This document shows positions 1,625 through 26,476 of a stretch of 64,000 nt of DNA, in pieces. The notes below the pieces were generated by a model that made no database searches, was not told where the DNA came from, and saw nothing but the letters and a program-made list of their open reading frames with translations. The stretch lies in the NCBI RefSeq assembly GCF_001447785.1, contig NW_015168654.1, positions 1,748,031 through 1,812,030 of the forward strand, read 5' to 3'. The stretch's first letter is position 1, and the number at the start of each line of letters is the position of its first letter. A program made the translations under genes and the position numbers. Origin of the DNA: Gekko japonicus (lineage: Eukaryota).

Positions 1625-1770
1625 TTGTGTCTCGTTCTGGTTCTTCTGACTTCGTGTTCAAATAAAGCTGTTATCATTGTTCACCTGCTGCCTCGAGTCT
1701 CTCTCTCAGCCTAACTTCTGTCATGACAATGGGCTTGGAGCTGTGGTGTGGGCCGGGCTGGCATGTTAGC

Positions 1771-3280: not shown

Positions 3281-3612
3281 TGGTCTGACCTGGATGGCCC
3301 AGGTAAGCTTGATCTTGTCAGTTTTCCAAAGCTAAATAGAGTTGGCTGTTGTTAGTACTTGGATGGGAGGCCACCAACAAAGTCCAGGGTTGCTATGCAG
3401 ACCACCTCTGTTCATCTCCTGCCTTGGACACCCTGTGGAGTCACCACAAGTCAGGTGCAACTTGATGGCACTTTCCAGCAGGGCTTTTGGGTTGAGGATG
3501 ATTGATTATACATTAGAATGAATTTTTAATCACATTATTAGTTTAATTACATTATTAGTGATTATTGCACAGGTGATGTTTTGAATGTTTTTAGCTGCTT
3601 TATGTTTTGGCT

Positions 3613-4480
3613 CCAGGGGATTTCCTGCGGCCTTGATGCGAGTGGAAACAGGACTCCCTTCTATTAAGGCAAGGGTGCACTTCGCAATTATAAAATACTG
3701 GAAGAAGATCGATTCGTCTAGATCTAACTCTCTAAGCCACCAATCTGTTAGATCATTATTAACAAAAGACCCTACGCATTCTGATTCTTTTAGCAATATC
3801 CTTAGTAGATACATCATACCTGATGACCTCCTCGGGGCCTCAGGTGACCATTCCCAACTCAGGGAATGGATTTTCAAATCAGATGCTGTGATAGATGGCT
3901 CACAAAGTCGAAAACAGCGCCTTGGTACAGCTCCTATTTATATAATATTTCCAATATAATATTATATAATATTTCCAACTATAGCCCTCAGGGTGTCTTT
4001 TACTGCCTTGTGTTTTCAAACAATGTACACAGCATTGTGGGAGGGTCGATATTTTCAAATTCCAACAGAACACAGTATATGTATTTGCGGTTTACTTGCC
4101 ATTGAGAACCTCCCTCAATGTCTGTATCTTAGTCTGCCTGTTATACAACGCACCCAGAGACAAATTCTTGACAGGAATTTTATTTACTATAAAAGCGTAT
4201 TCTGAAAATGAGAAGATTGTGTTTTTGTTATCAGATACTGATGAGTTCATATTTTATAGAGTCTCCCTTTTTGCCCTTGCGGCCAAAAAGATTAGACCCA
4301 GGGCAGCATCATAGGGGCCACTCTTATAAAACGTAGGCTATTTTAACCGATTCTCATTTTATGTATGTGATTTTAGGTTTTACTTCTTTATGTATTTTAT
4401 CATAATGTTTTACTGTTCTATTTGAATGTTTTGTAATTTTGTTGTGGCCTATGGCTAACACAATAAATCCTACTTACGAC
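3613..4480 (+). mobile_element. 5'-truncated non-LTR retrotransposon 3' end (RTEX-like) with 10-bp TSD
   Basis: Frameshifted ORF2 C-terminus (ETGL...KYW; GRY...C.C), AATAAA near the end, TGTTTTGGCT at 3603-3612 and 4481-4490. Confidence 0.65.
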
Positions 4481-5612
4481 TGTTTTGGCTTTCGATTCTT
4501 TTTACTGACTGTCTCATTAATGATTATTCATTACTTTTAGGGGTTGTTTTTCATTGAGGATCGTTTTTTTATTGATTTATGTAAGATTCCCCAGAAGCCT
4601 CGGGAGTTATGTGGGATATAAATTATTTTAAATGAACAATAGGCGGATGACAGCACAGTTCTGTTTTCCATTAGGTCCAGGAGCAGTTGTAATGCGTATG
4701 CCAGCACCCGAACTAGATAAGGAAGAATAACTGTCAGCTGAATGCAGATAAGCTTCAGCCTAGAGAATATTTAATAAATCGAATCAATTGAGGATGGTTG
4801 AAGGATCCCTGTGATGCCAGGTAGGTGAGTTTGTTTACACGAGATGGGGTTCACACTCCCCCAAGGGATCAGATTAATAGTTTTAAGGATTTCTTGGCAT
4901 CCTGCTTTGCAGATTGATCTGCAGTGGCCGGGAGTGCCATTCATCAACTTTGGCTGATAAACTGACTGATAAACTGGCTGATAAAAGTCATCCACCTTTT
5001 ATGTTTTGGTAATGTCATCCGGACTACTGCAATGAGCTGCCGTTAAAGGGAACCCCAAAGCTGTAATTGATACTGTCTTCTGTGTCCTGCTTTTTGTTTA
5101 GCGAAATAGAGCAAAGCTTTCCAAGCATAATGGGATAGATTGACAACTGCCCGTACATGTGTTCTCTGTTATGGCTCCCACCTTGTGGAACAGCCAGCCT
5201 CAGGAAGTCAGACTGCAAAATGTTCAAACTAGAAATGTTCAGGAGGGCATTTTAATAAAGGGAATAGAAGTGTACTGTAATTCAGGAGGGTGCTTTTATA
5301 ATGGAATTGGAGTCTATTGTAGTGTTTATTATATGTAACATCTTCCTTTTACGGCATTGCCTTCTACTTTTCTAACAAACTTTGTGGTATGTCGTGCCTT
5401 TGACAGGTTTTTCTTTTTGTATTGTTTTCCAGTCCTGTAATCCTAGTTCTGGAAGGAAGGCGGTATGATATAGCCCAGTCTTGTCAGATCTTGGAAGCTA
5501 AGCAGGGTCAGTACTTGAAAGGGAGACCACCAAGGAAGGCTCTGCAGAGGAAGACAATGGCAAATCACCTTTGCATCTCAGGCTGCGAGTATACATACAA
5601 TTAGACCCAACA

Positions 5613-5753
5613 TACCCTGTTTTCCCAAAAATAAGACCTACCCCAAAAATAAGCCCTAGCAGGATTTCTATGCATTTGTGGTATAAGCCCTAGTGTGTCT
5701 TCTTGAGAAAAAATAAATATAAGACAGTGTCTTATTTTCGGGGAAACACGGTA
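5613..5753. mobile_element. Tc1/mariner (Tigger-like) MITE
   Basis: TIRs TACCCTGTTTTCCCAAAAATAAGAC / GTCTTATTTTCGGGGAAACACGGTA with terminal TA; nested in another repeat. Confidence 0.7.
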
Positions 5754-8700
5754 GGTGTGAATGCTGGGCAGATTTAAAGGGTGCAATCAGACAACAACAT
5801 CTGGGAAGTGCCCCACAGCCATTGGCAACCCGTTCTGCTTTGCCGCAGAAGTGGTGTTAAAAGACACCGGGGAAACTCTGGTAGTAAACAGGTTGCAATG
5901 GGCCACGGACGGACTTTCCTGTGTCTGATCGCTCCAGCGCGCTCTCATGGAGTCAGGATGATCTAATCAGGCCATCCCAACTCCATGCTGTTCCTTCTCA
6001 GTATGCGCATCATCGCAAACTCCATAGGGAGCCTTCAGTGTGGAGGTGTGATTCATTAATCCCTCGGGGGGGGGGGGGAGGCCCAACACAAAACCCGATG
6101 TCTGATCACACACTGACGGACTGCGCCCACAGCTTCAAAGGGAGGTGTGATCATGCAACTGCGGGTCAAATTCCTCTGGAGGAAATAGCCTCACCCCCCC
6201 CCCCCCCATTTTTCCTGGTGAGTGTGACCACAACTTCACTTGCCTTAAAAGCCCCTTGCTGGAGTCACCATAAATTGCCTGCAACTTGACGGCACTTTAC
6301 GCACACAGTCTTAGTCCTATTTCCTTGTTTATTGGATGAGTTATGCTGTCTGAACTGCTTTTTGTAATCTGACTTTATTCTCCACAAGAAAGGCAGGCTA
6401 TAAAGAAAGTGAAAAAATAATATTTTCTTGCTCATCTGTACTGGATACCAGTTACCTTCCAGACCCAGTCAAGGTGCCTACATGACCTGGGTCATATGTA
6501 TCTAAAGAGCATCTGCTCTTGTACTATTCTCCACCAGCACAAACAGGAGAGGCTGCAGTGCAGATTCCTCAGCAGTTCAATTGATGGCACTGCTTCTCTC
6601 TTGATACTGTTCTCTTGGTAAAAGTTCCAATCCTGAGGAACTCCTTGCCCTCCTAGTCAGGGTCATAGACTTCTCAATTTCCCCCTTGGGGGGGGGCATG
6701 GGGCTGAACCTGGTCCAGGCCCACCCTTAGTAATCTATATTATTTAAATATAAAATTATTTATATTTCCAAAACCCACATGCCATCAACAATTAATCATG
6801 TGGTTTTAAAAATATAATTTTTCCCACTCATAATAGTCTGAATCTCAATAAAAGAAAGAGGACTCTGTGAGAGGAAAGATGTCAGAAACTCCTTCACTAA
6901 GACAATTTGAGTAAATATTTCATTCATGTATGAAAGGAAATACTTCCTCTCTCTCTCTTTTTCTCACAACTTAGCCTGAGTTATGTGACTGGCCCAAAAC
7001 CTTGTAGTGTGCTTTGTGGCTAAGTGGGGATTTGCGCTCTGGTCTCTCCAATCTTAGACCAGAACTCTAACTATACCACTCATGTACTGGATACTCTAAA
7101 TGCATCTCAGAATCCACAGTAAACCCACAGTAAATACAGGCTTTTCAAATGCTCTGACCTGAAATTATGGGAGCATTTGTTCGGCTAAAGTAGGATCCAG
7201 GACAGCAGAATCACCTCACTTTCTATGTTTGATGTTACCAATTTTATCTCCTCCCCCACACCATGTACAGACACAAAGAGACAAAAAAGGCTATTCCAAT
7301 ATCATCCCTTTTTTTTTGCAGTTTCATTTTTTTATTATTAAAAAAAACCCCAAACAGCAAACGACATAACAGATATACACCATACAGATAAGAAAGGGGG
7401 GGGGAAGGCTTCCAATTTTCTCTATGACAAATATAGGCTTAATTACATAATTTTCTCTTACTCTATGAATACAATAAAGAGCTCTCTTTTTCTATTATCT
7501 AAATTTCTTATTCCTGAAAACCATAAATCATCAAATCATTGTAGAGAAAACCCAAAGGTTCAAATAATCTATTGATTATTATTGGGTTTCCAGAGGGCCT
7601 CTGAGAAAGGACTTTGGGGTGTTGTTTTTTTCTCTAGAAGTAAGCTGACAAAGTGTTAACCACTAAGTAGAATTGTAGAAAACAGATGTTTTAAATCAAA
7701 TTTAATTGTCATACAAAGAATATTTTAATGAGCAGCTGTTCTTACCCCACCTTTTTAATTAGACTGCCATGAACCATCCCAGCTAGACCTGTCAAAGATT
7801 TATAGTGGGACTTTTGGCTTCAAAGGAGTTAATTACAGCTTATGAAGTTTTGAGTAATTTTAAATGAGGAAAAATCAACTAGGCTTCTCTATCCTTAATT
7901 TTAGAATGCTTTAACATATCGATATTGAACTACTGGAGTCTATAAGCAATATATATATATATATATATGCCTTTTTCAGCCTCTTTTAAAAAAGTTTTGT
8001 ACAATCCTGTTGCCAAAACATCCTTATTGGGCTGCCTCCCCACACACACCCCACACTCCGGGAATGGTGGGGGTGGGGAAGAAGTGTCTGCCGGTTGAAT
8101 TTCCATGGTTGCCAACCTCCAGGTGGGGCCTGCAATGAACTGAACTGGTGTGATGCCAGTGAAAGAAATTTTAATTGGAATAACAGGAAGCACCACTGCC
8201 AACATTAGAGATCTATGGTGGGATCCTTTACTTTGAAGGATCTAGAAATAATTGGTCAAGATGTTTTTAGAAAGGCCTAATTGAGGTGAATGAAAGGGTA
8301 ATTGTATTGTAACAGAGAGCATAATCCTTCTTCTGACTTGCTATGTGTTTCTAAAAAAGGAGATCAGCCCCCCCTGGAGAAAACGGCTGCTCGGGAGGGT
8401 GGTTTCTCCCCTGCCTGAACCACGACCTCCCCAGCCTCTGCCCTAAACCTCCAGTTGCAGAACAGACAGAGAGTCCAGGAGCACCTTACACAATTTGAGG
8501 CAGCAGGTAGGGTTGCCAGCTCCATGTTGGGAGCCCCACAACTTTATATTTTAAAGCCCATTTTATCATGTATTCTTTTACTTGTTCTTCCTCTCAGTCT
8601 CAAATTTCAACAATAAGAACATAAGAACATAAGAGACCAGTGGGGTACAATGCCACAGAGACCACCAGTGTTCCCTCTGAGCTGAATCAGTGTGAGCTAG

Positions 8701-10562
8701 CTTACAGTCTTTTAGCCGGCTCACCCATTTTTGCCTTCGCTCGGGAAGGGTGGCTCCAGAGCAAACGAATGTATGCAGCAACCAATTCGGATCACTCACC
8801 ACTTTTAATGCCAGTAGCTCACAAAGCAGCATTTCTGCTCACAAGACTCCACAGCTTAGAGGGAGCACTGGAGTCCACCCTCCAAAGCACCCGTGTTCTC
8901 CAGGGGGAACTGATCTCTGTAGTCCGGAGATGAGCCGTAGTTCCGGGGGATCCCCAGGTCCCACCTGGAGGCTGGCATTCCTAGCAGGGGATGCGCTTTC
9001 GTGAGACACCAGTTCTGAAGAAGTGAGCCGCGACTCACGGAAGCTCCTCCCCTGCCACAAATCCCATTGGTCTTCTTTAAGGTGCTCCCGGACTCTTTTT
9101 TCTACCATGGCCTACCTTGCTTTAAATCTCCAGGAATTCCCCCCCTACCGGGGCGGATTAAGGTTCACCTGTGCCCTAAGCGCTGACCAATCTTGGTGCC
9201 TATGTTTTTTGCTATATGCTCCTCATATTCCCTTTTTGCCTGACTGATCACAGACTTGCATTTTATTTGTCACAGCCTGTGTTTATACATTTAATAATTT
9301 ATACATTTTAGTAATAAGATATTTTTTGTTTGTACATAATTCTTTTTCAAATTCAGACTTGAATTGTTCAAATTCAAAATACCTTTTGTCTTTTTCAAAC
9401 CTTTCCAAGATTTATAAATACAAAAACCAATGACAGGTATAACCTTCTGTTAATAAATTTCCTCTAGATTTGAAATTTATATTCTCCTTGTTTTTCTAAC
9501 ATATCACGATATGGTGACCATTTATGCAAACTGAAGATGTTAGGAGATGGGAAGAACTTGCAGCTAAAGATTGTAGGGAGTCCCAGGTTCAATCCCCTGA
9601 TATTTTCTGTTTTTAAAAAAATATCTGGTGGCGGTCACACGGGTGAGATAAACTGGGGGGGAATTTGACCCGCAGTTGCACGACCACACAGTCCTTTGAA
9701 GCTGCGGGGGCAGCCCACCACTGCGTGATCAGACGCAACTGCGGGTGAGTCAGGGGTTGTTGTTTTGTTTTTTTGCCATTTGTTTCCGATTCGCTTAAAC
9801 GGGGAATCGATGAATTGCATCTCAGCACTGAGGGCTCCCTATGGAGTGTTGCACATACTGAGAAGGGGGGAAAAAAACAATGGCACGGAGTCAGGATGGC
9901 CTGATCAGACCGTCCCGACACCATGAGAGCGTGCTGGAGCAATCGGACATGGGAAAGTCCGTCCGTGGCCCATAGCAACCCGTTTGCTACCGGACTTTCC
10001 CTGGTGTCTTTTTACTCCACTTCTGCGGCAGAGCAAAATGGGTTGCTGAAGGGTGCGGGGTGCTTCCCAGATGTCCGTGTCTGATACCACCCTTTAAATC
10101 CACTCGGCATTACGCGGCTAATTGTGCGTGTGATTGCAACCTTTGAGAGAATCACCTGGAGAAAGGAGCAGTCTCTGCCTTAGACCTCAGCGGTTTATTT
10201 TTTTCAAAGCACCACAAGCCGGAATAAAGATGTCAACAGCCTGATTAAAGGCTGGCTCCAAAAAACAAGGCCGCAAGGCAGAAAGAACATCAATCCTCAT
10301 CCTCATCCTCCTTCTTCTCAGTCAGTGTGTCACAATGGTTAAGAGTGTCAGAGCAGGATCTGGGAAGCCCAGGTTTGAAACCCCACTTGTGCCATGAAGC
10401 AGTCACACTCTCTCAGCATAACCTACCACACAGGGTTGTTGTGAGGTTACAATGGAGGAGAGGAGAATGATGTAACCTGCTTTGGGTCCTGTTTAGTGAG
10501 AAAAGGCAGGATATGAATGAATTAAAATATATATATATTAAAGTGGTAAGAGAAAGCCTCTG

Positions 10563-12122
10563 AACATACGAACATAAGCGAAGCCAATGTTGGATCAGGC
10601 CGATGGCCCATCCAGTCCAACACTCTGTCACACAGTGGCCAGAAATACCAGGTGCCATCAGGAGGTCCAGCAGTGGGGCCAGGACATTAGAAGCCCTTCC
10701 ACTGTTGCCCCCCCAAGCACCAAGAATACAGAGCATCACTTGCCCCAGCCTGTGATTTCCTATCTATACCTTGTGGCTAATAGCCACTGATGGACCTCTG
10801 CTCCATATGTTTATCCAATTCCCTCTTGAAACTGTCCATGCTTGTAGCTGCCACCACCTCCTGTGGCAGTGAATTCCATGTGTTAATCACTCTTTGGGTG
10901 AAGAAGTACTTCCTTTTATCTGTTCTAACCCGACCGCTCAGCAATTTCATGGAGTGCCCACAAGTTCTTGTATTGTGGAGGAGGAGGAGGAGGAGAGGAG
11001 GAGATTGGATTTATACCCCGCCCTTCACTACCCAAAGGTGTCTCAGAGTGGCTTACAAACTCCTTTCCCTTCCCCTCCCCACAACAGACACCCTGTGAGG
11101 TAGGTGGGGCTGAGAGAGCTCTGATAGAAACTGTTCTTTTTCAAGTACAGCTCTTATCAGAACTACGGCTTGCCCAAGGTCATCCAGCCAGGTGCAAGTG
11201 GAGGAGTGGGGGATCAAACCCGGTTCTCCCAGATTAGAGTCTGCGCACTTAACCAATACACCAAACTGGCACCAAACTCACCAAATTGTGAGAAAGGGAG
11301 AAAAGTACTTATTTCTCGACCTGCTGTATTCCATGCATAATCTTATAAACCTCAGTCCTGTCACCCTTCAGCTGTTGTTTCTCAAAGCTAAAGAGCCCCA
11401 AGCGCTTTCCCCTTTCTTCATAGGGAAAGTGTTCCAACCCTTTTATCATTCTAGTTGCCCTTTTCTGCACTTTTTCCAATGCTATAATATCCTTTTTGAG
11501 GTGTGGTGACCATAACTGTACACAGTACTCCAAACGAGGACGCACCATCGATTTATACAGGGGTATTATGATACTGGTTGATTTGTTTTTGATTCCCTTC
11601 CTAATAATCCCCAGCATAGTAGCCTTTTTTATTGCAGTCACACACTGTCTTGACATTTTCATTGAGTTATCTACTAGGACTCCAAGTTTCTGCCAGTTCG
11701 GACCCCATCAACGTGTATTTATATTTACGATTTTTTGTTCCAATGTGCATCACTTTGCACTTGGTCGCATTGAACCCCATTTGCCACATTGACGCCCACT
11801 CGCCCATCCTCAACAGATCCCTTTGAAGTGCCTCACAATCCTCCCTGGTTGTCACCACCCTGAACAACTTTGTGTCTTCCGCAAATTTAGCCACTTCACT
11901 GCTTCCTCCCAACTCCAAATTATTAATAAACAAGTTAAAAAGCATCGACTGAGTACTGATCCCTGATGTACCCCACTGCTTACCACCCTCCACTGAGAAA
12001 ATTGCCCATTTATACTCTCTGTTTCCTATTAATTAGCCAGTTTTTGATCCACAAAAGGACTTGACTATTGAGCTTACTTAGGAGCCTTTGATGAGGAACT
12101 TTATCAAAAGCTTTCTGGAAGC
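10563..12122 (-). mobile_element. CR1 LINE 3' portion interrupted by a SINE
   Basis: RT C-terminal motifs (KFAEDTKL; LYKSMVRPRLEYCVQLWSPH; EKVQKRATRMI); TTATGTTC-type tail. Confidence 0.9.
10977..11270 (-). mobile_element. tRNA-derived SINE (Squam3-like) inside CR1
   Basis: A/B-box head and L2-like tail; near-identical to copies at 30708, 31672, 46111 and 47715. Confidence 0.8.
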
Positions 12123-12568
12123 TCTCTACCAGCGCTCTTAAAACGCCTGAGTGTCTGAAACTGGAATGGGGACTGAGCCTGGCCTTTTAATCCTTAATCC
12201 TTGCGCTGATTGCCTCCTCTTCCTAGCGACCTAGCCCCTTCACTCCCCCCCCCTCCAACCCCCCCCCCCAAACGTCCGCTGTAGATGAGACCAGAAAATG
12301 TATTATTTATTTATTTATTGGACTTCTATCCCACCCTCCCCGCGAACGGGATCAGGGTGGGTCACAACAGAAAAACCAATACAAAATTCAACATTAGAAC
12401 TCTAAAGCATCATATTAAATGAAGGCAAGAAGGTAAGGCAAGGCAGCTAGTCTGAAGAACGGGCGGGAGTGCGCGCAGCTTGCCTGTGCGGCCGGAAGGC
12501 TGGCATGGTAACCCTTTCCCCGAAAAAAGCCTTTTCCAGCCTCATGAAGACTATCATTGCACGCATTC

Positions 12569-12570
<2 letters not shown>

Positions 12571-12619
<49 letters not shown>
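12571..12619. repeat. (AGCC)n microsatellite
   Basis: About 12 tandem units. Confidence 0.95.
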
Positions 12620-12620
<1 letters not shown>

Positions 12621-14257
12621 TGAAGGGTGGAGTATAAATCCAATCTCCTCTTCTCCTCTTTTTCTTTCTTCAACAGGAAGACTGACTGGCTTGGGCTGGC
12701 AAAGTTGCTGCCATTTGGGTAGCGGGCAGCAAACTAATTTGGGGTAGTAAGTAACTGCACTGTCATGGAGTGGACCAAGGGGGAAAAAGCCCCCATCGGT
12801 CTCCCCTGCTGTGAAGCACGTATAGGTTTCTGACTCTTTTCTAGTACCCTGTGGAATGGACCTCTCAGGACAGCCTCCAAAGGAATATTTAGGGTAGTGG
12901 TCATGGAATGAATTTCCTTCTGGGGTCATCTCTTCCCTTAAAAGCCATCTTGAACCAAGAGGAAAGGTGGGATGTAAATGTTTTAATAAACAAGTTAATA
13001 ATAAATTGAACCTTCCTCGTTCTTAGCACCTTTCCCCCCCTCTGCTGTCCTGCCAGAACCCTTGTTTCTTCTTTGTGGGGATGTTCATGACCCTGGAACG
13101 GAAGCATGCCTCGGTCTGCAGCTGGGTCAGTTAGCAAACATGCCAAGGATAACATGAGCTTCAGACACCAAGGGTCAGCCCTTCTCTCTAGTTCTGGCCG
13201 TGCCTACCATTTGCTGCTTAAGAGAGAGGAAGAGCTCTGGTGTGTTGCTGGCCTAGTGGGAAATGACAAGTCCTGCTGGGTCTCACCAGTCGCAGATGCC
13301 TTGCATGGTTTCCAGATCTTCCTTTGGTTTTGTCAGTGCATTCAGGAGCCCATTTTAAATGGCAGGGGTTGGCCTTAGAAGATGTAAAAACGGAGCAAGC
13401 AAAAATAGATACGAGAGCATCTCTGCACATGTGCACAGTTTATCTGAGCCATGGTCTTTTTAGAAGAGTGGGAATGAACCCTGGAACATGGGACATGATG
13501 AAGCCTGTGCCTCCGAACATGGGCAGAATGCCTTTAGTCATCACTAGGTAGATACAGTTTGTTGATTTATTTCCTTAATCTCTAGCCTGCCTTTCAAACA
13601 TGCTCAGATTCACTCCACAAAGTCTAGATTAAGGAATGGGTCTGCCTTCTAGGTGAGAGCATTCAAGCAGGTAGAGCCCAGGGCTCCTTTCATTTTTTAG
13701 TAACTAACTACAGTTATTTGGGAGTGAGATTTTGTGCCACTTAAACAGTAAGAAATACCAAGGTATTAAATTCACAATTTTTCAGCATGCAAGAAATGGA
13801 CTCCTTTAAAGCAGCTCAAACTGTCAAAAAAGAAAAGAAGAAAAGCAACTGTCAAAGGAAGGGCAACATACAGATCCTCATTCATCCCCTTCAAAGCTGC
13901 CTACTTGTTTCATTCCCTGCTTAGGGTAGAAGAGGTCCTATCTGTTTGCATCTGTTTTGTTTGGGGAAGGGGTGGAGTGAAGAGTATGACACTCTGTTGC
14001 CCTCTATGGTAAGGAAAATGGACTAGACTGGAGGAGAGAGGCTTGGGTTCACTGGATGGATTTAAGCCCCCTTGCCACGAGGACCACGGTCTCCCTTGAA
14101 TGTTTGCTGTAGCTCTGTAGTTCCAAGCACGCTTGTGGGGGCTAGTTCCTGTTGGATGCCAGGAGTGGCTGTTCTGTTTGGGAACCAGGGCTTCTGGCTT
14201 CTGTTCCATCCCTACAGAGAGCCCTCTCCAAGACACTCCTGTTCTCTGCACATCCAG

Positions 14258-14392
14258 CTTTGTCCGTGATGATTTCAAGCGCTACAAGGTGGACCTTGCC
14301 CATGTGGCCGAGCACCCGGCATGTGCGTTGCCCATCTCGGTGGTGATCAGCAACACGACGACAGGCACCCGCACCATCCTGCACGCCGCTAG
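14258..14392 (+). CDS. KHK: KHK exon 3a (KHK-A type)
   Basis: catccag|C...GCTAG|gtgcgt; 135 nt; [44 protein letters not shown]. Confidence 0.9.
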
Positions 14393-17300
14393 GTGCGTAG
14401 GCAGAGTGTTCCTTGTTTTCGGCTCTAACCCTCCTCTTTCTCTCCCCCTTCCCTGGCCCCAAGATTCATCCTGTCCGATTTCCAGAACCGCAACGTGAAT
14501 GTGGCCCATGTGGTCTGGCAGAGCCAGGGGGAGACGCCGTGTGCCTGCTGCATCGTCAACAGCTCCAATGGCTCTCGGACAGTCACTCTCTTTGACACGT
14601 AAGGCCCAGCCTGGCTGCTGCTTCTAACTCCCCCTGCCAATGGGTGGCGCCAGAGGGCACCCTGCCACTTGCCTTAGGGACCAGGCCTGCTCTAGCAAGC
14701 TCCTTTCCTCTTTCAACCAGCCACTTCCTCACATGGGACACTAGGGCTATGATGGTATTAACAGTGATTTCACCAGTTTCATGCTTTCATTCCATTTCCC
14801 ACAAGGGAGGAGATGTGCACTCCCAAGTATATCAGCCTGTTCCTCCCATCCTTATGGAGAGATTCTCTGATGCAGAGCAGAGCTCACGTCTGCCTGAATT
14901 CTCAGTATTTAGCATCAGGAAGCGCAAGGTGATGTGACCTGCACTTCAGGCATATTTGCATTGCACTGCACTGCACATTCAACTGCATAGCTGAATCTGT
15001 TTCTTTAGTGTTTTGGATTTTTAAAAAATTCTGCTGATCTTGAGGGAGCAGAAGGAAAATAGGCTGTCCATTGAGAAAATCTTATTCAGCAATCCTATTG
15101 CCTTCTCCGATTCTACCAATATTGCCTTTGCAGAAGGATCAAAACTCCAAAAGCAGAGGCTCTTGGGAATGGTAACTTTGGGGCCAAAATTGTGTTCTGC
15201 TGGTTTTTTGGCTCTTGTGTAGAATTGCCGCATAGCTGGATATAAGAAGTTGCCAATATGAAATCAGATTATTTGATCAACAGACTTTCTCTGGTAGAAA
15301 AAAAAGACTTCTCTCAGCACCAGCTATCTGGGCTTCTTTAGGTGGAGATGCCAGGGACCTTGTGCATGCCAGACATGTACTTTCTCACTGAGCTCTGGCC
15401 CTCCCCTTAAACAAAAGCAAAACTGCCATTGGGCCCAGCATTGTCTGATTTGCCTGGCAACCATTCTCTAGAGTATTTCCCAAGAGGCCTTGTAACTGGA
15501 GATATGAGGGATTGAACCGGGGACCTTGTGCATGCAAAGCACGTCCTCAGTCACTGGTCTGCGGGTCTTCCAAAGGAGAGAGGTGGTCAGAACCCATCCC
15601 TCACACAGCAGTTCCAACTACAGCCCCAGGAGCAAACTAATGCAGGGGGGCTTGGGCTTCTTGTATTCCTTGTGTAGGGAAACTGAAGCCAGTGGAGAGA
15701 TGAAGTTCAAACTCCTGAATAGGCCTGTCCATCCCGTCACAGTGCTGTGCACCCCCCCCCCCCCCCCCCGGCAGCACTCTTGTGCTTTTATTAATTGAGC
15801 TACAAACCAAAATATAGTAAGTGAAGCATGGGTCAGAAGCCCTGCCAGAACTTCTGAGCCTTATTTCTGCACATCTGTTGCACTCTGGGACCAGCTGCAA
15901 AGGAAGACTGGACTCCTGCCCTTCAAATAGTCGTTGAAAGAGAGAATTTTGGGAGGAACAGCTTTTCTTAACCTTGAATTACAAAGTTGCATCTCCCAAA
16001 GAACAAGCATATGTATCTCATTTTCAGAAGGCCAAAGCTCTTCATACATCTTGTTTTAATCAGTACTTACAACACCCCTGTAAGGTAGGGCTGTGTTGTC
16101 ATCGCGCATTGCAGAGGAGCTGAAAACATACAACTTGCCTAAGGGAAGTGAGTGTGTGGCAGAGGGGATATTTAAACCAGGATCCTCCTAGATCACAGTT
16201 CATTCTCTTAGCCACTGTGCTAGATGCTTCAGCATAACTATGGAAGGCACAGCCTCATCAATATCAGTTGCTTCTGGTTGTGCAAATGCTGCTTGGAAGC
16301 TGGGAACTGGATCCCTAGGTTCTCTGGAAAAGAAGTAGAATCTCACAAGGAGAAGAAACATGGAGTTTCTGGACTTTTGCCCTGACCTGGTAGGAGCTCC
16401 TCTGGATTCCTACTTTTCTAACTTGTCCTGCCTTTATGCGAAATATGGCAAACAGTGTGAAGAACAGAGCTCTGTAGGGTGTAGCTTTATTCTCTCTCTC
16501 TCTTCATCTCTTATCAGTAATGACTAATATTAATTATCCATCGAGTACACTTGATGTACAAAGTGCTTTTTGATTGCTATCTTGTTGGTCATTGTGACGT
16601 TTTAAAGTTTCCGCTTTTGACAACAAGTTCAGCAGGCAAAGCTTGGCATGCAGAAAATCTGCTGAATTTCTTCTTACTATGCAGCTTTTAAAAGACAGTT
16701 GGCAACCCAACATGCTGGTTGATGCTCGCATTTTACAACTTGGGAGAACCGAGGCTCAGGTGGAGGGATGCCACTCTGTAAGTCAAGTGATTCAGATGCC
16801 AAGACTTGCAAGGGCAGATCCTGTTCTTCATCCTCTCATCCATAGCCATGGCTGTGTTAGAAGGTACAAGACAAAAGTTGCGGGGTTCTGTAACCTCTAG
16901 CTTATGGTGCTAGGGCTCAAAGACGATGCTCCCAATCAGGATTTGTGTAGGGGCTTGCCTGAGCAGGTCGAAAGAGTCCCCACCACCTGACCCAAGCAGG
17001 TTCTCAGCATGGCGCCACCCAGTGGGAGGGGAAATACCATCTGTGCACGGTCAAGAAAGATCTGACTCACTTAATTCTTGGTAGATTCACCTACTAATCC
17101 TACACAATGCAGCCAATCATCTTTGCCAATGCTAATTCCTGATCGTCCTTCTTGGTAATTGCACACCACTGTTTCTCTCCTTGTTATATCCCCCCCCCCC
17201 CCCTCTTTCTGACTCATGGATTGAGAGTTGCAGGTGGGACGGCTTCTTGACCAGAGCAGGGGGGCACACCTGGAATCTGGACAGTGGAAGGTGAGAGGCT

Positions 17301-20300
17301 GTGGGCTTGCAAAGAGGCTCACCTGGGCCCAGTGATCCAAGACAGAAGGGAAGGCCACCATTGTGCAGTGGGGAAATGCTTTCTGTGACTTGGGAGGGGG
17401 TCTTCCCTTCCATGTGCTGAGACAGTGTCCCCCTATTTTGATACACTTCCAAGGGCTTTCCATGGTCCCCTTTTCACTCCTGTCCCTTAGGCAGCACTGC
17501 TAGCAAATGTTCAGCCTTACCATTTAAATATGGGGTTGTGCTCAAGTGAACTCCTCCCGAGGGGGTTTCTTAATCTTTATAGGGGATGGGCACAAAACTC
17601 CCCTCCTGCTGCCAGTGGAGCGGCAAGACTTGGTTAATGATTCCTCTGGGCCGGCACAGGCCTGGGAATGTCTTCCGGGTGGCCTTTGTCCCAGGGGCAG
17701 GTTTTGAGGGTTAATAATTGAAATGGGGTAGAGTCCAGTTCCCCATCATGGGGGCTGAGAGCCAGTTAACCCTTGGCCTACCAAGCACCCCAGATTACAG
17801 CCCTTGACACCTCACTGGGGCGTGGTACTGTTCTCAGGAGTAGGGGCCCATGAATTAAAAAGACGATCGTTCTAGAAGTGTGGGTGGGTGGGTGAAATTT
17901 CTTTTCCATTGGAATGGAATAACCACAGTTAGGCCTAGGGATGCCAGCCTCCACGTGGGTCTTAGGGATCCCCTGGAATTACAGCTCATCTCCAGACTAC
18001 AGAGATCAGCTTCCCTGGAGAAAATGGATGCATCGGAGGGTGGACTCTATGGCAGTGGGCCCCACTGAGGTTCCCTGTCCTCCCCAGGCTCCGTCCCCAG
18101 ATCTCCAGGAGTTTCCCAGCCTGGATCTGGCAACACTTACCCAGTGGCCAGTGGCCAGTAGCCAGGGGAACCTAGTGACTCTAATTAGGTCCTATATGTC
18201 TGGGTTTTGGACGGGCTTGCCTGATCAACGTAAACCTCAACCTATCTCTTATGGGAAATGGAGCCTCTCTTGGACACCAGTGAATGCAGCAGGCTTAAGG
18301 TCAGAGGTTTCCTTGCAGATACCTCCAAAACGGCCAAAGGCCAAGCAATTTCCGCAACAGCCTAGAAAAGGCAAGGTCAAGCAGGTGGTGATGCCTTTTG
18401 GTATTGCTTAAGGCTGGTTAACTGCCCATTTGGGGGTGTCTGGTCTGATACATTGCATGCTGGGATGTCTAATAAGGTGGGCTACCCTCCAGCATCAAAG
18501 TGATTTAAATTTCTTACCAGTACTACTGTCCCTCTCAAGGGGCTCAAAGCACAAGGTGGGTGGTGTCCACTAACTAATTTCTTACAGGTACTATGTGCTG
18601 GCCCATACCAGCTTCCTTTCATGCCTGGCTACTCTCCTCTTTGGAAATTGCAGAGTAGAGAGTGAGAGAATTTAGTCCTTGTTTTTATTTGGGGAGAGGG
18701 GTTGAGGCCCCTTCCAGTCATTCATACTTCTATAAACTACAGTCTACTCTTCCATAATGTAAGAAACATAAAGAATTGCCCTGCTGACCTACCCAGCACT
18801 GCACCCTCTGCCAGAAAGCCAGTCCAAATGCAAAGGTCTTACAGCATTTCTGGAAGATGCTCAGGCTCAGACTTTGACCATCTCCGAGGGAAACAAATTT
18901 CTGCGGCAGCTCCCTAGAACACTTCTCCCCATGTATTTTATGTTTAATTTTTATTTTACAAAATGTATATCCTTTCTTTCTGCCCTCACAAGGGCTAGCA
19001 GGGGGGCTAACAAACTAAAACGTACATAATAAAATCATGTTGTAAAACCATTAAAACCAACTCAACCCCCCCCCCACACACACATAATTAAAACCAGAGC
19101 TAAAACACAAAGACATAAAACCAACAATTAAAATGTTGGGCAGGAAGATGGGATCTCTGAGGGAACACCAAATCAAATGAAAAAGTTTTCACCTGCAGGT
19201 GGAGGATGGCAACAAAGAGGGACAGACGAATTTCATTGGAGAGAGAGTTCCAGCGTTTTGATGCTACGACTGAGAAGGCCTTCTCATGGGTTGCCACCTG
19301 CCTAGTTTCAGGAGGTGAGGGCACCCAAAGCAGGGCCCCTGAAGATGGCCATAGAGGTGGCCCTTCAGGTATGGTGATCCCAAACCATATAGGGCTTTAA
19401 AGGGCAACACCAGCACCTTGAATTGCACCCAGAAACAGCTGGGAAGCCAGTATAGATGGGCCAAGATTGGGGTGATAATTAGGGTTGCCAGCCTCCAGGT
19501 GGGGCCTGGAGATCCCCTGCTTTTACAACTGATCTCCAGCTAACAGAGAGCAGCTCCCCTGGAGAAAATGGCTGCTTTGAAGGGTGGACTCTGTGGCATT
19601 GTGCCATGCTGAGGTCCCTCCCCAAACCCCACCCTCTCCCAGATTCACTCCCAAAGTCTCCAGGTATTTTCCAACCCAGAGCTGGCAACCCTAAGTGATA
19701 GGGTTCCTATGACCCACTCCAGTCAACATCCTCGCAGCAGCATTCTGCACCAGTTGAAGTGTCCGAACACTTCTTAAGGCAGCCCCATGTAGAGCGCATT
19801 GCAGTAGTCTAACCCAGTGCTAGGCCTGGGTCCAAGAGCCCTCCGGTGTTCTGTTCAGATTTTCAGGCATGGATTTAAGAGGCCAGGCATCTTGGGCACA
19901 TTGTCAGGACATTTTCAAGACTGTCAGGAGCAAACTCTTCAGGGCTTCGTAGATTATAGCCAACATTTAGACTTGCTCTCTGCATACTGCTGGGAAGGGA
20001 GGCTGCTGCAGTGTTTTCCGACTCAGCCCCACGTGCAACACATAAATAGAACCTCCATATTCAGGAATCTGCCTCTGTTTGCCGGCTTCTGAGAGCAAAC
20101 AATAAGGATGGCTGGCTTCTTAATGCCTTGGCTGTGAGCGGCCCAGAAGCACTGGATGGGTGCCATGGAAACACAAAAGAGTTCAGTTGGCTTCCAGACA
20201 GGGAAGGCAGAGTCAAACAGTTTAAGCGGAGGTTTTAGGGTTGTTCTCTGTCAATTATTTTTTCAACAGGTATGCATTTTAATCACAGTTGCCTGCGCTC

Positions 20301-23300
20301 CTGCTCTTTGAAGGCAGGCTGTCGATTTAAATAATCTGAGGAGGGGGAGGCCCCGCAATAGCCTGCGTCCTCTGCTGTCTCACAGATTTTGTCCCCTCTG
20401 CATCTCTTCCACCCCTCTCTGCAGCAACCTGCCAGATGTGACAGATGCTGATTTTGAACAGGTTAACCTCTCTCAGTACAAGTGGATTCACTGGGAGGTG
20501 AGTGAGACTACAAGCCCTAAGCGCAGTGAGTAGGGTTACCAGCTCTGGGTTGGGAAATAACTGGGCAGAGCCTGAGGAAGGCGGGGTTTGGAGAGGGGGG
20601 GGGCAGGGCTTTTTTTGTAGAAAAAAACCAGCAGAAACTCATTAGCATATTAGGCCACACCTCTGATGCAACATATTAGCATATTAGGCCACACCCCATG
20701 CCTTCCCTTGGCTTGCCCAGGCAAGCCGGGCCTTGGACAGTCTGGGGGAGACATTTAAATACCTCCCCAATCCTTCCAGGCCCCCCACCGGGGCCCCCAC
20801 CTCGGAGTCGCCAAGGGGGGGGGTTACTCTCCAGGCCTTCCCTCTGTAGCCACGCATGCAGTGGTTTTGGCTGTAGTGGGCGTGGCCAACTCTGAAGCCA
20901 GCCAGAACGCCGTTCCTGTGCGTTCCTGCCCAAAAATAGCCCTGGGGGGGGGAACTTCAGTGGGCTATAATGCCATAGAGTCCACCTTCCAAAGCAGACG
21001 TTTTCTCCAGGTGAACTGGCCTGTCAGCTGGAGGTCAGTTGTAGTAGCCGGAGATCTCCAATCATCACCTGGAGATTGGCAACCCTAATAGTAAGTCATA
21101 AGTATGTTCACTGAATCGAATGGGGCTTGCTCCCCAGTAAGACTGCAGCCTGGGATGGTGACCTTTCCTGTCTCTGTCTGCCTGTGGCATATGGGATGGC
21201 AAAGCCCTTTGAGAGAACCGTCACTTGATAAATCTCACCGGTGGGTGCTCCTTTGCAGTAGTGAAGTGCCTCTTGCTGCTTAGGCCACCAAGCCATGCTT
21301 CGATCTGTGGCTATCCTCCTTTGCCTCCCCAGCTGCTTTGCCAGTCCTCTTGCCTCTTTGCCTCCCGTCCCCATTGCTGTTCCCCATCCCTACCCCTCCC
21401 TGTGGTTGGTGTTCCATATCTCGCCTTCTGCTCTTGTGCCTGGGCCGGTTAAAATCTCAGCTCAACCAAGGTGGCCGTAGGCATGCCAAGGAACAGCTGT
21501 GGCTCAGCAAGAGAGCTTTCTTTCTTTCGTTCCTTCTTTCCAACCCAAATGTGTATGCTGCCTTTCTGCCCCCAGGTGGCTAACTGTGAAACCGTTATAA
21601 ACACGTACCATAAAACAATTGATAAACAAAGCAATTAAAACCAAAACTAAAATGTACATTAAAATATAGAAAGCAGTAATTAAAGCACACAGCAGAAAGG
21701 AGGGGACGTTGAGGGAACATCAGATGAAGCACAAAATGTCTTCAACCACTGATGGAAAACAGTTGACAGAGGAGGAGAGATAAATATCCCCCGGGAGAGA
21801 CCTTTTGTGAGTCACTGCTCACTACATTTAGTTAGTCTTTAAGGTGCTACTGGACTCTTGCTCTTTTCTACTGCTACAAAGAGACTGACATGGTTGCCAA
21901 TCCTGCTCTATCCTGAGAGAGTGTTTTTATTGGTTTTGTTTATTTAAACATTTGTTAGCGACTTTTCTATCTTGTGGGACTCAAGGCGGCTTACAAAGTA
22001 AATTAAACAACAATTATCAAAACACATCAAAAACTCACAAGTGCTATTGCTATAGTTTTGGTGCTATGACCAAAAGGGCCCTCTCTCAGGTTGCCTATTG
22101 GGGGGGGGGGGGGGGATGTCCCAAAGCTGGGCCTTGGAAGATAACTTCAGCAGTTGGGTAGGTTTGTATGGGAATACGTGGTCCTTCCTTTACATGTAGG
22201 TGGTTTGGTTTTGGTCCCTTGGAAAGACTCCTGCCTATGCCACTGCCAGTGAGAGGGCACAGTCCTAGGCCTGACAGGTCAATGGTCAGACACTATAAGG
22301 CAGCTTCATATAAGCAGCTGCTGCCTCCAACTTGGTCGCAGGGCTGGTTTCCCAGGGTGGTCAGGTTGGGCATTTCCAAAGCCCCAAGACTAGAGAAAAG
22401 CTTAACACTCCCTTGCCTTGCATGGGACACCTGAGAAGAATTGGGGGGGGGGGGTGGATGATAAAACTATCCTGCATTACAGGACTGTTATATTATCCTG
22501 ATTGGGGGCCTGGAGACCAAGCCCTATGAGGAAAGGCAGAGGGACTTGGGAATGTTCAGTCTGGAGAACAGGAGGTTGAAGGGGGAGATGATTGCTCTCT
22601 TTAAGCATTTGAAGGGCTGTCCCTTAGAGGAGGGCAGGGAGCTGTTCCTGTTGGCACCAGAGGAGAGGACTCCCAATAATGGGTTTAAATTAAGGGCGGG
22701 AAGGTACCGGCTGGATCTTAGGATAAACCTTTTTACAGAAAGAGTTGTGCAACAGTGGAATCAGCTGCCTAGGGAGGCGGTGAGCTCCCCCTCCCTGGCA
22801 GTCTTTAAGGAGCGGCTGGACAAACACTTGTCAGGGATGCTCTAGGCTGATCCTGCATTGAGCAAGAGGTTGGACTAGATGGCCCGTATGGCCGCAACTC
22901 TGTGATTCTATGTTAAGTGTTATGAAAATGCCAAGTGTTTCCTGTGGGCAGGGTGCTTGCAGCCACTGCTAGATAAATGGGAAGGAGTGGGACCCATCCC
23001 TGCAATTCTCAACAGCTGTTCAGAGAAGTGGGTTGGGCAGAGGTGTCTGAGCAGAGAATCTGAGCGGCCTACCCCACTAAGAGCAACTCTCTTCAACAGA
23101 AATGCCTCTGAACAGGTGAAGATGATGCGACGGGTAGAAGAGTATAACGAAACCTGCCCTGAATCTCAGCGAGTGGGCACATCCGTGGAGGTGGAGAAGC
23201 CACGGCAAGAATTATACCAGCTCTTTGGCTATGGAGATGTGGTAGGGAACCCCCAAAGGTGGGAGCTGTTGAGAATCTAAGGGGGGGGGGTACCTTGGCT

Positions 23301-25806
23301 GAACTTGGGGAGGATGTGGCTAGTGAAGAGCAAGCCAAAGACTGGCATCCCAACCTGGATTAGGCCACGCCAGACAGCTGCTGCCCCATGAGTGGTTGTA
23401 CTGCAAGGCCAACTGTTGAGTCCCACATCCTTTGCAATGTTTTTGATCAGCAACAGCTATAGAGACCTGCAATTGTAGCACAACAGAAAATTCCCCTTGG
23501 AAGAATCCGTAATGCTGTAGATACTTGGGAAAGTCAAAAAGCAGTTCAGTGGCCCATTTGGCCTTCTGCTGTTGACTGGCGCACCAGTTTATTCAGCTAC
23601 AAGTTTGGCAGCCAGCGTGTTCAGATACCGTTGAGCTAATTCTAGCAATAATATAGTTGAGAAGAGCCACAGGAGGGGTTGTGGCTCAGTGGCAGAGCAG
23701 GCAGAAGGTCCCAGGTTCAGTCCCCAGCATCTCCAGTTAAAAAGGATCAGGTGATGTGGAAGAGCTCTAGCTGAGGAGAGCCCCCACCAGTCAGAGTAGG
23801 CAGTACTGACCTTGGTGGAGCAATAGTGCAACGCAGTAAAAAGCAGCTTGCTATGTGTCCAACATTCCCTTCATGCCTGCTTAGGAAGCCCCTGCACCCC
23901 AAGCCTCTGGCAGACAGTCAGCTGAGCTGGGCTAGGCAAAGTGGCTTGAAGCAATGGTGATTTTGCCGCTGTTCTCTCCCTCCAGGTGTTTGTCAGCAAG
24001 GACGTGGCTAAAGATCTTGGTTTCTGTTCTGCCTCTGAAGCTGTGAAGGGGCTATACAGGCGTGTGAAGCCAGGGTAGGTGGAGGCCACAAAGTCAGGTG
24101 GGGTGGTTAAGCTGGAATTGTTCCATAGAGTCCCTTAGCCAGTGCTTGAGGGAGAGGGGAGTGTATGAAATGGAACACTGGGTGGGATGGAGTCAAAGTG
24201 CAGAGAAACAGCACGGGGCCCCTATCAGCAGCAGGAGAAAGCCCCTGAAAAACTGTACTTGACAGGTGCCCTTAAGAGAGCCAGTGTGGTGTAGTGGTTA
24301 AGAGCGGCAGACTCCAGTCTGGAGAACCGGATTTGATTCCCCATTCCTCCTCCTCAGGGGTCATTTCGTAGAAAAAGAGCTAGGGGAACTCATTAGCATA
24401 ACTCATTAGCATATGCCACACCCCCTGACATCAGGGGCCCGGCGGTGGACCTGCAAGGCCAGCGGGAGAAAGCCCCGCCAAGGCCCTCCCTGGCCCCAGG
24501 CAGGCAGGGGTGGGGAGAGGCGGGGAGGAAGCAACTTACCCTCCCTCTTCTGCCTCCTCCTGGCTGAATGAGGGCTGGAAGCGGGGTGGCCGGAAGCAGG
24601 GGGCGGGGCTTCGTCATGTGCCCCGCCCCCCTGCACCTCACCCGGGGGAACTGCATTCCCCCGCGTTCCCCCCCGAAATGACATCTGCTCCTCCTGAAGC
24701 CTGCTGGGTGACCCTGGGCCAGTCACAGTTCTCTCAGAACTCTCTCAGCCCCACCTGCCTCACTAGGTGTCTGCTGTGGGGAGAGGAAGGGAATGTGATT
24801 GTAGGCCGTTCTGATAGGCCGTTCTGAGACTCCTTAAGGTAAAGAAAAGCATGGTGTAAAAACCTACTCTTCTCCTTAGTGCTCTTCATTGAGCATGCCA
24901 GAGAATGAAGCTCATTGGCCCTGTGGCAATCCCCCCCCCCAATTTGTCTAACTGGTCTGGAACTATTTCTTGATCCCAACCTAAATCTGCTTCGTGGGTT
25001 ACAGCTCGAACTGGTGGTTTCTCACCTGTGTCTGGTGAGCATTGAGGGCAGGTGTATTCGCACTGCAAAGCACTTCTGCAGCACAGGCTGCCATTGAAAT
25101 ACTTATTTTCTTTAGTTCCACCTTACCAAGCTAGCTCAGGGCACACCATTTTGTGACTCCCATCCACATGCGTATTGGGGTGGGGGGCAGCTATGGGGTC
25201 ATCCATCCTACTTTGAACGGCAAGGCATCTGGCTCCCGCTCTGCCCCTTTGGGTCACTTTGATTGTGTAGGATGCACTGTTCGCAAGTGGAGAGTGCATT
25301 GAGAGGGGGCTCTTGGGTCCTAACCCCACAAACTCCCTGCTTTCCACCCAGGGCCACCTTGATCTGTGCTTGGGCGGAGAATGGGGCTGATGCGATGGGA
25401 CCAGGTGGGCAACTGCTGCACTCGGATGCCTTCCCCCCCGACAATGTCGTGGACACGCTGGGGGCTGGGGACACGTTCAACGCTTCTGTTATTCTTGCCC
25501 TCAGCAGGGGTGAGTACATCAGTCCTCCTCCCCCCTCCCACACATCAGTCCTGTCCAATTCCGCATGCCTTGTCAAATGGCGGCAGCACTAGGGGCACAG
25601 GGCAGAGGCGTGAGACGTCTCCCTCTGCCCACTGACCCTTCAAGTCTTAGCAGATCCAGAGTGGCTGCTGGCCGTGCCTCCGTATGGCGGAGAGAGTTGA
25701 CACTCTGCTTTCTGCGGCAGGGAGACCACTTCAGGAGGCCATCACCTATGGGTGCCAGGTGGCTGGCCGGAAGTGCGGGGTGCACGGCTACGATGGGATC
25801 GTGTGA
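14258..25806 (+). CDS. KHK: Ketohexokinase gene span (exons 3a/3c-8; exons 1-2 not in window)
   Basis: Spliced exons translate to the PfkB-family fructokinase, including [13 protein letters not shown] and C-terminal [10 protein letters not shown]. Exon sizes 135/135/73/142/89/158/86. Exon 5 acceptor anomaly described in findings. Confidence 0.95.
14464..14598 (+). CDS. KHK: KHK exon 3c (KHK-C type)
   Basis: ccccaag|A...GACAC|gtaagg; 135 nt; [45 protein letters not shown], similar to human [30 protein letters not shown]. Confidence 0.93.
17630..17830. promoter_or_regulatory. Candidate HNF1/HNF4 enhancer in KHK intron 3
   Basis: GGTTAATGATTCC 17632, TGGCCTTTGTCCC 17680 (DR1), GGTTAATAATTGAA 17709, GGGGCGTGG 17817. 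Confidence 0.45.
19480..19693. mobile_element. hAT MITE, full length, inserted in an L2 fragment
   Basis: TAGGGTTGCCAGC...GCTGGCAACCCTA. Confidence 0.8.
20425..20497 (+). CDS. KHK: KHK exon 4
   Basis: ctgcag|C...GAG|gtgagt; 73 nt; [24 protein letters not shown]. Confidence 0.93.
20531..21087. mobile_element. hAT MITE carrying a nested second MITE (20604-20944)
   Basis: Outer TIRs TAGGGTTACCA / TGGCAACCCTA; inner CAGGGCTTTTTTTG / CAAAAATAGCCCTG flanked by G8 on both sides. Confidence 0.8.
22505..22911 (+). mobile_element. CR1 LINE 3' fragment
   Basis: [20 protein letters not shown]...[13 protein letters not shown]...LDKHL; GATTCTAT tail. Confidence 0.85.
23100..23241 (+). CDS. KHK: KHK exon 5 (5 nt shorter than expected at the 5' end)
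   Basis: [47 protein letters not shown], donor GTG|gtaggg. The acceptor caacag| gives 142 nt, out of phase with exon 4. Confidence 0.85.
23986..24074 (+). CDS. KHK: KHK exon 6
   Basis: ctccag|GTG...CCAGG|gtaggt; 89 nt; [29 protein letters not shown]. Confidence 0.93.
25352..25509 (+). CDS. KHK: KHK exon 7
   Basis: acccag|G...AGGG|gtgagt; 158 nt; [52 protein letters not shown] (PfkB GAGD motif). Confidence 0.95.
25721..25806 (+). CDS. KHK: KHK exon 8 (terminal coding part)
   Basis: cggcag|GG AGA...GTG TGA; [27 protein letters not shown]. Confidence 0.93.
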
Positions 25807-26060
25807 GCTGCATTCCGGAAGCCATGTCTGCTGGGTCTGGGACCCTTCTCCGAGCCAAGGACCAAAATCTTCTGCGCTGCTGCACTGCACGCGCACCATG
25901 GACGCTGGTGCCACCCCTGTGCAACTCACAGCTGGTGGGAGAGGGATAGGCCAAGCCTGACTTGCCACCCTGCACGCAGTGTGCCGTCTGCTCTGGCTGG
26001 CCCTGGCGCTCTTGTCCCCAATGGGGACTCTCTTGTGTTGCCATTTCTAGAGTAAAGATC

Positions 26061-26294: not shown

Positions 26295-26476
26295 TAGGGC
26301 TCTTTTTGTAGCAGGAACTCCTTTGCATATTAGGCTACACACCCCTAATGTAGCCAATCCTCCAAGAGCTTACAGAGCTCTTCTTACAGGAGCTACTGTA
26401 AGCTCTTGGAGGGTTGGCTACATTAGGAGTGTGTCGCTTAATATGCAAATGAGTACCTGCTACAAAAAGAGCCCAG
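26295..26476. mobile_element. Near-perfectly palindromic MITE
   Basis: Arms of about 80 bp complementary from GGGCTCTTTTTGTAGCAGG to CCTGCTACAAAAAGAGCCC. Confidence 0.8.

What the first reader, a model, noticed from the sequence alone, without database searches (positions are those of the whole stretch)
14258..14598. KHK-A/KHK-C mutually exclusive exons separated by only 71 nt with a donor-proximal branch point
Seen: two paralogous 135-nt phase-2 exons. The intron 14393-14463 is 71 nt and has a strong branch site CTCTAAC (A at 14428) only 35 nt from the 3a donor, followed by an approximately 30-nt pyrimidine tract. Known: donor-to-branch distances below roughly 50 nt sterically block splicing, as in alpha-tropomyosin exons 2/3. 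Both exons are multiples of 3, so NMD cannot remove double inclusion. Inference: exclusivity is hard-wired by geometry, and the A/C switch studied in mammals is shared with squamates.
Basis: partly seen in the sequence, partly recalled or inferred. Interest (0 to 1): 0.7.

Follow-up and report, generated by a model that had tools for sequence, protein, structure and literature searches.

The report
Gecko fructokinase exons excluded by spacing
A gecko fructose-metabolism gene carries the two known alternative exons of ketohexokinase only 71 bases apart, which likely leaves too little room to splice them together; the exon pair is ancient and already known, but this tight spacing is likely special to geckos and some relatives rather than the general vertebrate arrangement.

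Summary
Its only plausible branch adenosine is intron nucleotide 36, and no adenosine follows before the terminal AAG. That is below the ~50-nt donor-to-branch minimum, so a steric block is likely here. All 5 RefSeq geckos have A-only and C-only models as their two longest isoforms, and 12 of 13 squamates whose longest model I saw have no A+C join. Two elapid snakes join 3C to a donor 50 nt further upstream, as a distance limit predicts.

The pair dates to the jawed-vertebrate ancestor, which is published. The intron is 188 nt in human and 164 nt in a fish, and A+C joins are annotated in turtles, frogs, fish and mammals and seen at low level in mouse. The geometry is therefore likely lineage-specific. 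No usable RNA evidence was obtained for this species, so junctions, branch point and tissue switch are untested. New member of a known kind; interest 0.35.

The parts
14258..14392 (+). KHK exon 3A orthologue, 135 nt, phase 2-2
   Evidence: matches only the 2HQQ/9P6Q/2HLZ-type sequences; groups with first exons of 22 vertebrates, 100/99
14343..14348 (+). Position of the internal donor (GT) in 3A that elapid RefSeq models join to 3C; here weak (4 of 9 to consensus), 85 nt from the branch A; use would shift frame
   Evidence: use in this gecko not shown
14393..14398 (+). 3A donor, TAG|GTGCGT (6 of 9 to consensus); predicted inside a local hairpin with the end of exon 3A
   Evidence: hairpin p=0.16 against intron shuffles
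14393..14463 (+). 71-nt intron between 3A and 3C; not a multiple of 3, retention reaches a TGA at 14496
14423..14429 (+). Predicted branch site CTCTAAC, A at 14428 (intron nt 36); last adenosine before the acceptor AAG
   Evidence: predicted, not mapped
14429..14460 (+). Polypyrimidine tract (30 of 32 pyrimidines, no A)
14464..14598 (+). KHK exon 3C orthologue, 135 nt, phase 2-2
   Evidence: (E 3e-17 to 8OMG-type, 3e-14 to 3B3L/3NBV)
20425..20497 (+). KHK exon 4 (73 nt), common downstream partner of 3A or 3C
23100..23241 (+). KHK exon 5; the expected phase-0 acceptor 5 nt upstream is missing in this sequence
23986..24074 (+). KHK exon 6
25352..25509 (+). KHK exon 7
25721..25803 (+). KHK exon 8, coding part up to the last sense codon

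Best explanation
These are the 3A and 3C alternative exons of gecko ketohexokinase, and they are likely kept mutually exclusive by spacing: the predicted branch point for 3C lies only 35 bases after the 3A donor, which would leave too little room for one spliceosome to use both. Shown: the exons, the 71-nt intron, the single candidate branch site, the absence of later adenosines, and orthology to the vertebrate A and C exons. Inferred: U2 binds at 14423-14429 for any splice into 3C, so exon 2 can join 3C but the 3A donor cannot, and the 3A donor must skip to exon 4. Leaks would be intron retention or an internal 3A donor, both out of frame and predicted NMD targets. Which exon is chosen would still be set by trans factors, as in mammals. 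The ancestral intron was likely longer and leakier, and squamates (possibly also birds) shortened it.
For: Geometry. Threshold: Keiper 2019 passages, splicing abolished in vitro at 46 nt and assembly abolished at 35 nt; mapped OGDH branch points at 25-41 nt enforce exclusivity. Internal control: 5 of 5 other short introns (95-328 nt) mapped in this window have their best candidate A at intron position 52 or later and an A at 72 or later; the 3A-3C intron has neither (small sample, crude score). Annotation: 5 of 5 RefSeq geckos with numbered isoforms have X1 and X2 as single-exon 298-aa A and C forms; X numbers fall with length in 35 of 35 pairs; 12 of 13 squamate species whose X1 was in hand have a single-exon X1; an exact A+C RefSeq model was seen in 1 of 22 squamates against 6 of 6 turtles, although the query was a gecko A+C sequence that ranks squamate joins first. 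Pseudonaja X4/X5 and Notechis X6/X7 join 3C to a donor 50 nt upstream of the normal one.
Against: No direct RNA evidence: three raw RNA runs covered the exons at under 1x. The branch point is predicted only; a non-A branch in the tract at 50 nt or more from the donor is not excluded. Human introns of 43-65 nt are spliced in vivo, one of 56 nt as a lariat. Zootoca RefSeq X1 is A+C, and non-RefSeq models of Vipera, Crotalus horridus and Gekko kuhli join both exons; their introns were not seen. X1 was not seen for 9 of 22 squamates, and joined forms can hide in clusters I did not list. Absence from annotation also reflects read depth. The intron lengths of the five other geckos and of the elapids are unknown.
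Confidence: 0.6

Rival explanations
1. Exclusivity is mainly regulatory and leaky, as it appears to be in mammals: splicing factors favour one exon, the 71-nt intron can be spliced at low rate through a non-A branch or short-intron helpers, and its length is incidental.
For: Mammalian control by SF3B1, hnRNP H1/2 and A1CF (review passage). A+C junctions at low level in mouse. A+C models in nearly all vertebrate groups and in Zootoca. Ultra-short human introns are spliced.
Against: 35 nt is well under the in vitro limit. No A+C model in 5 of 5 RefSeq geckos. Elapid use of an upstream donor. No later adenosine in the intron.
Confidence: 0.25
2. A hairpin that buries the 3A donor does much of the work by weakening 3A, with spacing secondary.
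For: The 3A donor is predicted paired in the gecko (-19.2 kcal/mol) and, with the same stretch of exon, in fish locus L001 (-18.6).
Against: Gecko p=0.16 and fish p=0.049 against shuffles of the intron part, 5 donors tested, so not significant. Whole-region z=-0.38. It would not explain why 3A joins exon 4 but not 3C.
Confidence: 0.08
3. In this species one exon, or the gene, is dead, so there is nothing to exclude.
For: The only RefSeq protein found for the best-matching species uses 3A alone (P0120). Exons 1-2 were not found in the assembly. The normal exon 5 acceptor is missing in this sequence.
Against: Both exons are open, with intact splice sites and Arg108. 3C is 100% identical to Gekko kuhli and 91-93% to three other geckos. 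The assembly is in 191,500 contigs.
Confidence: 0.07

Closest known systems
Mammalian KHK exons 3A/3C (KHK-A, KHK-C)
   Same: Orthologous tandem 135-nt exons in the same order and phase, Arg108 in both.
   Different: Human intron is 188 nt, not 71. A+C joins occur at low level in mouse. The A exon's Ser80 is present in 5 of 5 mammals and Lys in this gecko (its role as a phosphorylation site is recalled).
Alpha-tropomyosin (TPM1) exons 2/3, ACTN1 and OGDH 4a/4b: steric exclusion by a donor-proximal branch point
   Same: Donor-to-branch distance under about 50 nt, followed by an adenine-poor pyrimidine tract.
   Different: Those use a distant branch point in a longer intron (OGDH 118-131 nt in birds and mammals) and have mapped lariats. 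Here the branch site is at an ordinary -36 and the intron itself is near minimal size; nothing is mapped.
CALU mutually exclusive exons
   Same: A 73-nt intron between mutually exclusive exons (figure legend of PMC7969005): the same short-intron layout.
   Different: A different gene. I saw no branch mapping for it.

Membership tests
KHK 3A/3C exon pair | Two tandem 135-nt exons of the same phase between exons 2 and 4 | tested here: met
   exon 2 itself not found in this assembly
KHK 3A/3C exon pair | First exon orthologous to vertebrate A, second to vertebrate C | tested here: met
   tree split 100/99 over 22 species plus the window. The labels A for 2HQQ and C for 3B3L are recalled.
KHK 3A/3C exon pair | Catalytic Arg108 kept in both exons | tested here: met
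   (23 of 23 pairs); residue named in PMC9741552 passage
KHK 3A/3C exon pair | Each exon used singly in mRNA | tested here: inconclusive
   Met by annotation in 5 of 5 other geckos; for this species only an A model was found and RNA depth was under 1x
KHK 3A/3C exon pair | Tissue-specific switch (C in liver, kidney, gut) | not testable with these tools
   Runs are coded without tissue and barely express KHK
Sterically enforced mutually exclusive exons (TPM1/OGDH type) | Donor-to-branch distance under about 50 nt | tested here: met
   35 nt to the predicted branch A, no later A; prediction only
Sterically enforced mutually exclusive exons (TPM1/OGDH type) | Branch point distant from the acceptor in a longer intron | tested here: not met
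   Branch A is at -36 in a 71-nt intron; typical range 19-37 nt in PMC7969005 passage
Sterically enforced mutually exclusive exons (TPM1/OGDH type) | No exon-joining reads | tested here: inconclusive
   uninformative; annotation proxy agrees for geckos, not for Zootoca
Sterically enforced mutually exclusive exons (TPM1/OGDH type) | Branch point mapped by lariat, and block relieved by a spacer | not testable with these tools
   Bench work

The most novel reading that the evidence does not exclude
KHK exon exclusivity changed mechanism during vertebrate evolution: leaky, factor-controlled choice across a 150-190-nt intron in fish, turtles and mammals became a hard physical block when squamates and birds each shrank the intron (71 nt in this gecko, 51 nt read from a hummingbird model), giving a natural comparative test of the 50-nt rule in vivo.
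Probability: 0.3. Interest if true: 0.55.

Novelty: new member of a known kind. Interest (0 to 1): 0.35.

Why it matters
KHK-C against KHK-A choice sets fructose breakdown and is studied in liver and heart disease. The papers I could read address which exon is chosen, not why both are not included. A lineage in which spacing alone forbids the join, beside lineages that leak A+C, would test the steric rule in vivo and show whether the joined protein is selected against. It changes neither what KHK is nor how steric exclusion works, hence a modest score.

Tried and rejected
RNA test: three raw RNA runs on 13600-26000 gave under 1x on the exons and were swamped by intronic repeats; no joint at these exons among the 15 rows shown of 167. 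No other read or contig evidence for the junctions was obtained. Exons 1-2: not found by two whole-genome searches or in the 100 kb before the window plus the window. A 5-nt micro-exon to explain the exon 5 acceptor: no candidate in 20498-23099. Donor hairpin as main mechanism: not significant. Metagenome scan for orthologous introns: 2 loci from 90 pattern matches, one useful (L001); L002 was a 16-residue match and was not used. KHK's absence from the PMC7969005 supplement was rejected as evidence, because its Table S6 covers only a subset of the 41 introns. The scan's own notes held nothing. Pfam on 36 long window frames: 35 blank, 1 weak hit. No structure or complex prediction was run.

Full report
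Observation. All coordinates check out. Exon 14258-14392 and exon 14464-14598 are each 135 nt and phase 2, separated by a 71-nt GT-AG intron. CTCTAAC places a candidate branch A at 14428, intron nucleotide 36. The intron has adenosines only at positions 7, 11, 13, 35, 36, 69 and 70, so nothing between the candidate and the terminal AAG can serve as an A branch. The two peptides are 13/44 identical (0 of 100,000 shuffles). The exact join is in frame without a stop. CTAAC arises in 2% of shuffles of the intron and yUnAy in 66%.

Identity. The first exon matches only three PDB ketohexokinase sequences, of the 2HQQ type. The second matches the 3B3L/3NBV type at E 3e-14 or better and the 2HQQ type at 2e-5. 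That 2HQQ is KHK-A and 3B3L is KHK-C is recalled; PMC4465641 lists them as the isoform pair (passage). Exons 4-8 lie at 20425-25803. The exons match a Gekko japonicus RefSeq protein, P0120, so the source is a Gekko. In a tree of first and second exons from 22 species I picked to span the groups, plus the window (44 columns), first and second exons separate at 100/99, and each gecko exon falls with its positional counterpart, from chimaera and sharks to mammals. This age is published: PMC9741552 dates the KHK event to Chordata (supplement row), and PMC4465641 finds all 60 homologous-exon events it detected in at least one of lamprey, gar, fugu, zebrafish or coelacanth, with KHK in its table of peptide-identified pairs (passages).

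Is the distance blocking? PMC6692369 (passages) reports splicing abolished in vitro at a donor-to-branch distance of 46 nt and cites abolished assembly at 35 nt, with a limit near 50. PMC7969005 (passages, section 25 and supplement passages) maps OGDH branch points 25-41 nt from the donor, counts 41 predicted human cases, and mentions a 73-nt intron between CALU exons. PMC5740500 (passages) counts 57 of 629 human clusters under 50 nt. Against an absolute rule, PMC4463651 (passages and section 9) confirms 15 human introns of at most 65 nt and reports a 56-nt intron excised as a lariat. As a local control I mapped 5 other introns of 95-328 nt (one in KHK, four in a neighbouring alpha/beta-hydrolase gene). 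All 5 have their best candidate A at position 52 or later and an A at 72 or later. The score is my own rough one and the sample is small.

Is the join used? Direct evidence failed: runs X21-X23 cover the exons at under 1x, and no further read data were obtained. As a proxy I used annotated isoforms. A search with a gecko A+C region gave 268 hits, 120 listed; I listed members of 30 clusters and labelled 150 of 199 named or unnamed database proteins by hand, leaving out unnamed rows, repeats of a species and many non-RefSeq models. RefSeq X numbers fell with length in 35 of 35 pairs, so a 343-aa A+C model would be X1. All 5 geckos with numbered isoforms have single-exon A and C forms as X1 and X2. 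Of 13 squamate species whose X1 I held, 12 are single-exon and Zootoca is A+C; for 9 more X1 was not seen. Exact A+C RefSeq models were seen in 1 of 22 squamates, 0 of 10 birds (X1 seen for only one), 6 of 6 turtles, 8 of 8 amphibians, 29 of 29 ray-finned fish, 5 of 5 cartilaginous fish and 16 of 17 mammals (the script's motif missed Manis, which is A+C by eye; platypus and Hemitrygon have an altered A part). The non-squamate figures show presence only, because the search selected for joined forms. That such RefSeq variants need transcript support is recalled. Non-RefSeq models of Gekko kuhli, Crotalus horridus, Vipera and four birds also join both exons.

A telling detail. RefSeq X4/X5 of Pseudonaja and X6/X7 of Notechis begin with exon 3A in a shifted frame (14 of 27 identical to the window's shifted frame) and pass into 3C at a donor equivalent to 14343, 50 nt upstream of the normal one and 85 nt from the branch A in gecko spacing. 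A distance limit predicts this kind of escape. The elapid introns were not seen. In the gecko this route and retention of the intron both give early stops and would be NMD targets.

Other lineages. Human coordinates in the supplement of PMC7771076 (rows and passages) give a 188-nt intron and two skipping events defined on a 3A-3C join, which may come from annotation rather than reads. PMC6464065 (passages) finds mouse A+C by junction counts in a handful of tissues at low level. KHK is absent from the 1,400-row table of validated exclusive exons in PMC5740500, where PKM, TPM1 and ACOX1 are present; one in-frame joining read rejects a cluster. Its main dataset and appendix were too large to read, so rejection of KHK is inferred. 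Locus L001, a fish sequence 89% identical in 3A to Dicentrarchus, has a 164-nt intron. Read-through models imply 147 nt in an eel and 51 nt in a hummingbird, if they retain the whole intron. Whether human or fish use a distant, donor-proximal branch point is open: L001 has CACTAAC at intron position 26, but six AGs lie between it and the acceptor.

Mechanism. Shown: anatomy and orthology. From established work: the distance limit. Inferred: that A14428 is the branch, that the join is blocked in vivo, that leaks are cleared by NMD, and that the short intron is derived. Choice between A and C would still need trans factors; in mammals SF3B1, hnRNP H1/2 and A1CF (review passage, PMC10835012). Confidence 0.6; leaky regulation 0.25; hairpin 0.08; dead exon or gene 0.07.

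Novelty. Ten literature searches turned up no paper proposing steric exclusion for KHK or describing reptile KHK splicing; for most hits I saw only the listing. The library lacks most subscription papers. The primary KHK splicing papers asked for were not held, the original gene-structure and tropomyosin papers are recalled only, and any of these may discuss the intron. PMC13408352 and PMC5378181 (passages) added nothing. Verdict: a real feature, a known exon pair, a known kind of mechanism, probably a new and lineage-limited example. Interest 0.35.

Noticed in passing
window 23080-23100: Exon 5 lacks the expected phase-0 acceptor and first Gly codon; the only good AG is 5 nt downstream and out of phase with exon 4. 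The RefSeq model P0120 bridges this with an unusual insert. Single copy in the assembly; no micro-exon found. Could be an assembly error or a real lesion.
   Followed up: partly
window 1-14257 and L003-L012: KHK exons 1-2 are not in the 114 kb upstream of 3A nor found elsewhere in G000; P0120 uses an unrelated first exon at 1520-1594. Likely an assembly dropout.
   Followed up: partly
window 14363-14417 and L001 329-383: The end of exon 3A is predicted to pair with the donor and first ~19 intron bases in both gecko and fish, using the same stretch of exon (p=0.16 and 0.049).
   Followed up: partly
L001, intron between the two exons (about 359-522): Near-perfect branch-like CACTAAC at intron position 26 in a fish, far from the acceptor and followed by several AGs. 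It may be a decoy branch site or a QKI/SF1-type binding motif (motif recalled).
   Followed up: no
window 14286-14288: Residue 80 of the A exon is Ser in 5 of 5 mammals and Lys in the gecko; among 17 other non-mammals only Xenopus laevis has Ser. Ser80 is recalled as a phosphorylation site needed for KHK-A's protein-kinase activity. The squamate A exon also sits on a long branch (0.62).
   Followed up: no
protein P0112 (not in window): A hummingbird RefSeq X1 reads through 51 nt between A and C in frame, suggesting an even shorter intron in a nectar-feeding bird.
   Followed up: partly
proteins P0121, P0170 (not in window): Two geckos have models that join 3A directly to exon 5 at the downstream AG, skipping exon 4 in frame.
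   Followed up: no
window 44007-51837, + strand: An alpha/beta-hydrolase gene (Pfam Abhydrolase_1/Hydrolase_4); ABHD1-like by recalled synteny with KHK.
   Followed up: partly
window 17740-24777, KHK introns: Several intronic repeats attract thousands of RNA reads from other loci, for example 19480-19618, 20604-20700 and 24355-24433; there is also a 79-nt-arm inverted repeat at 26297-26474.
   Followed up: no
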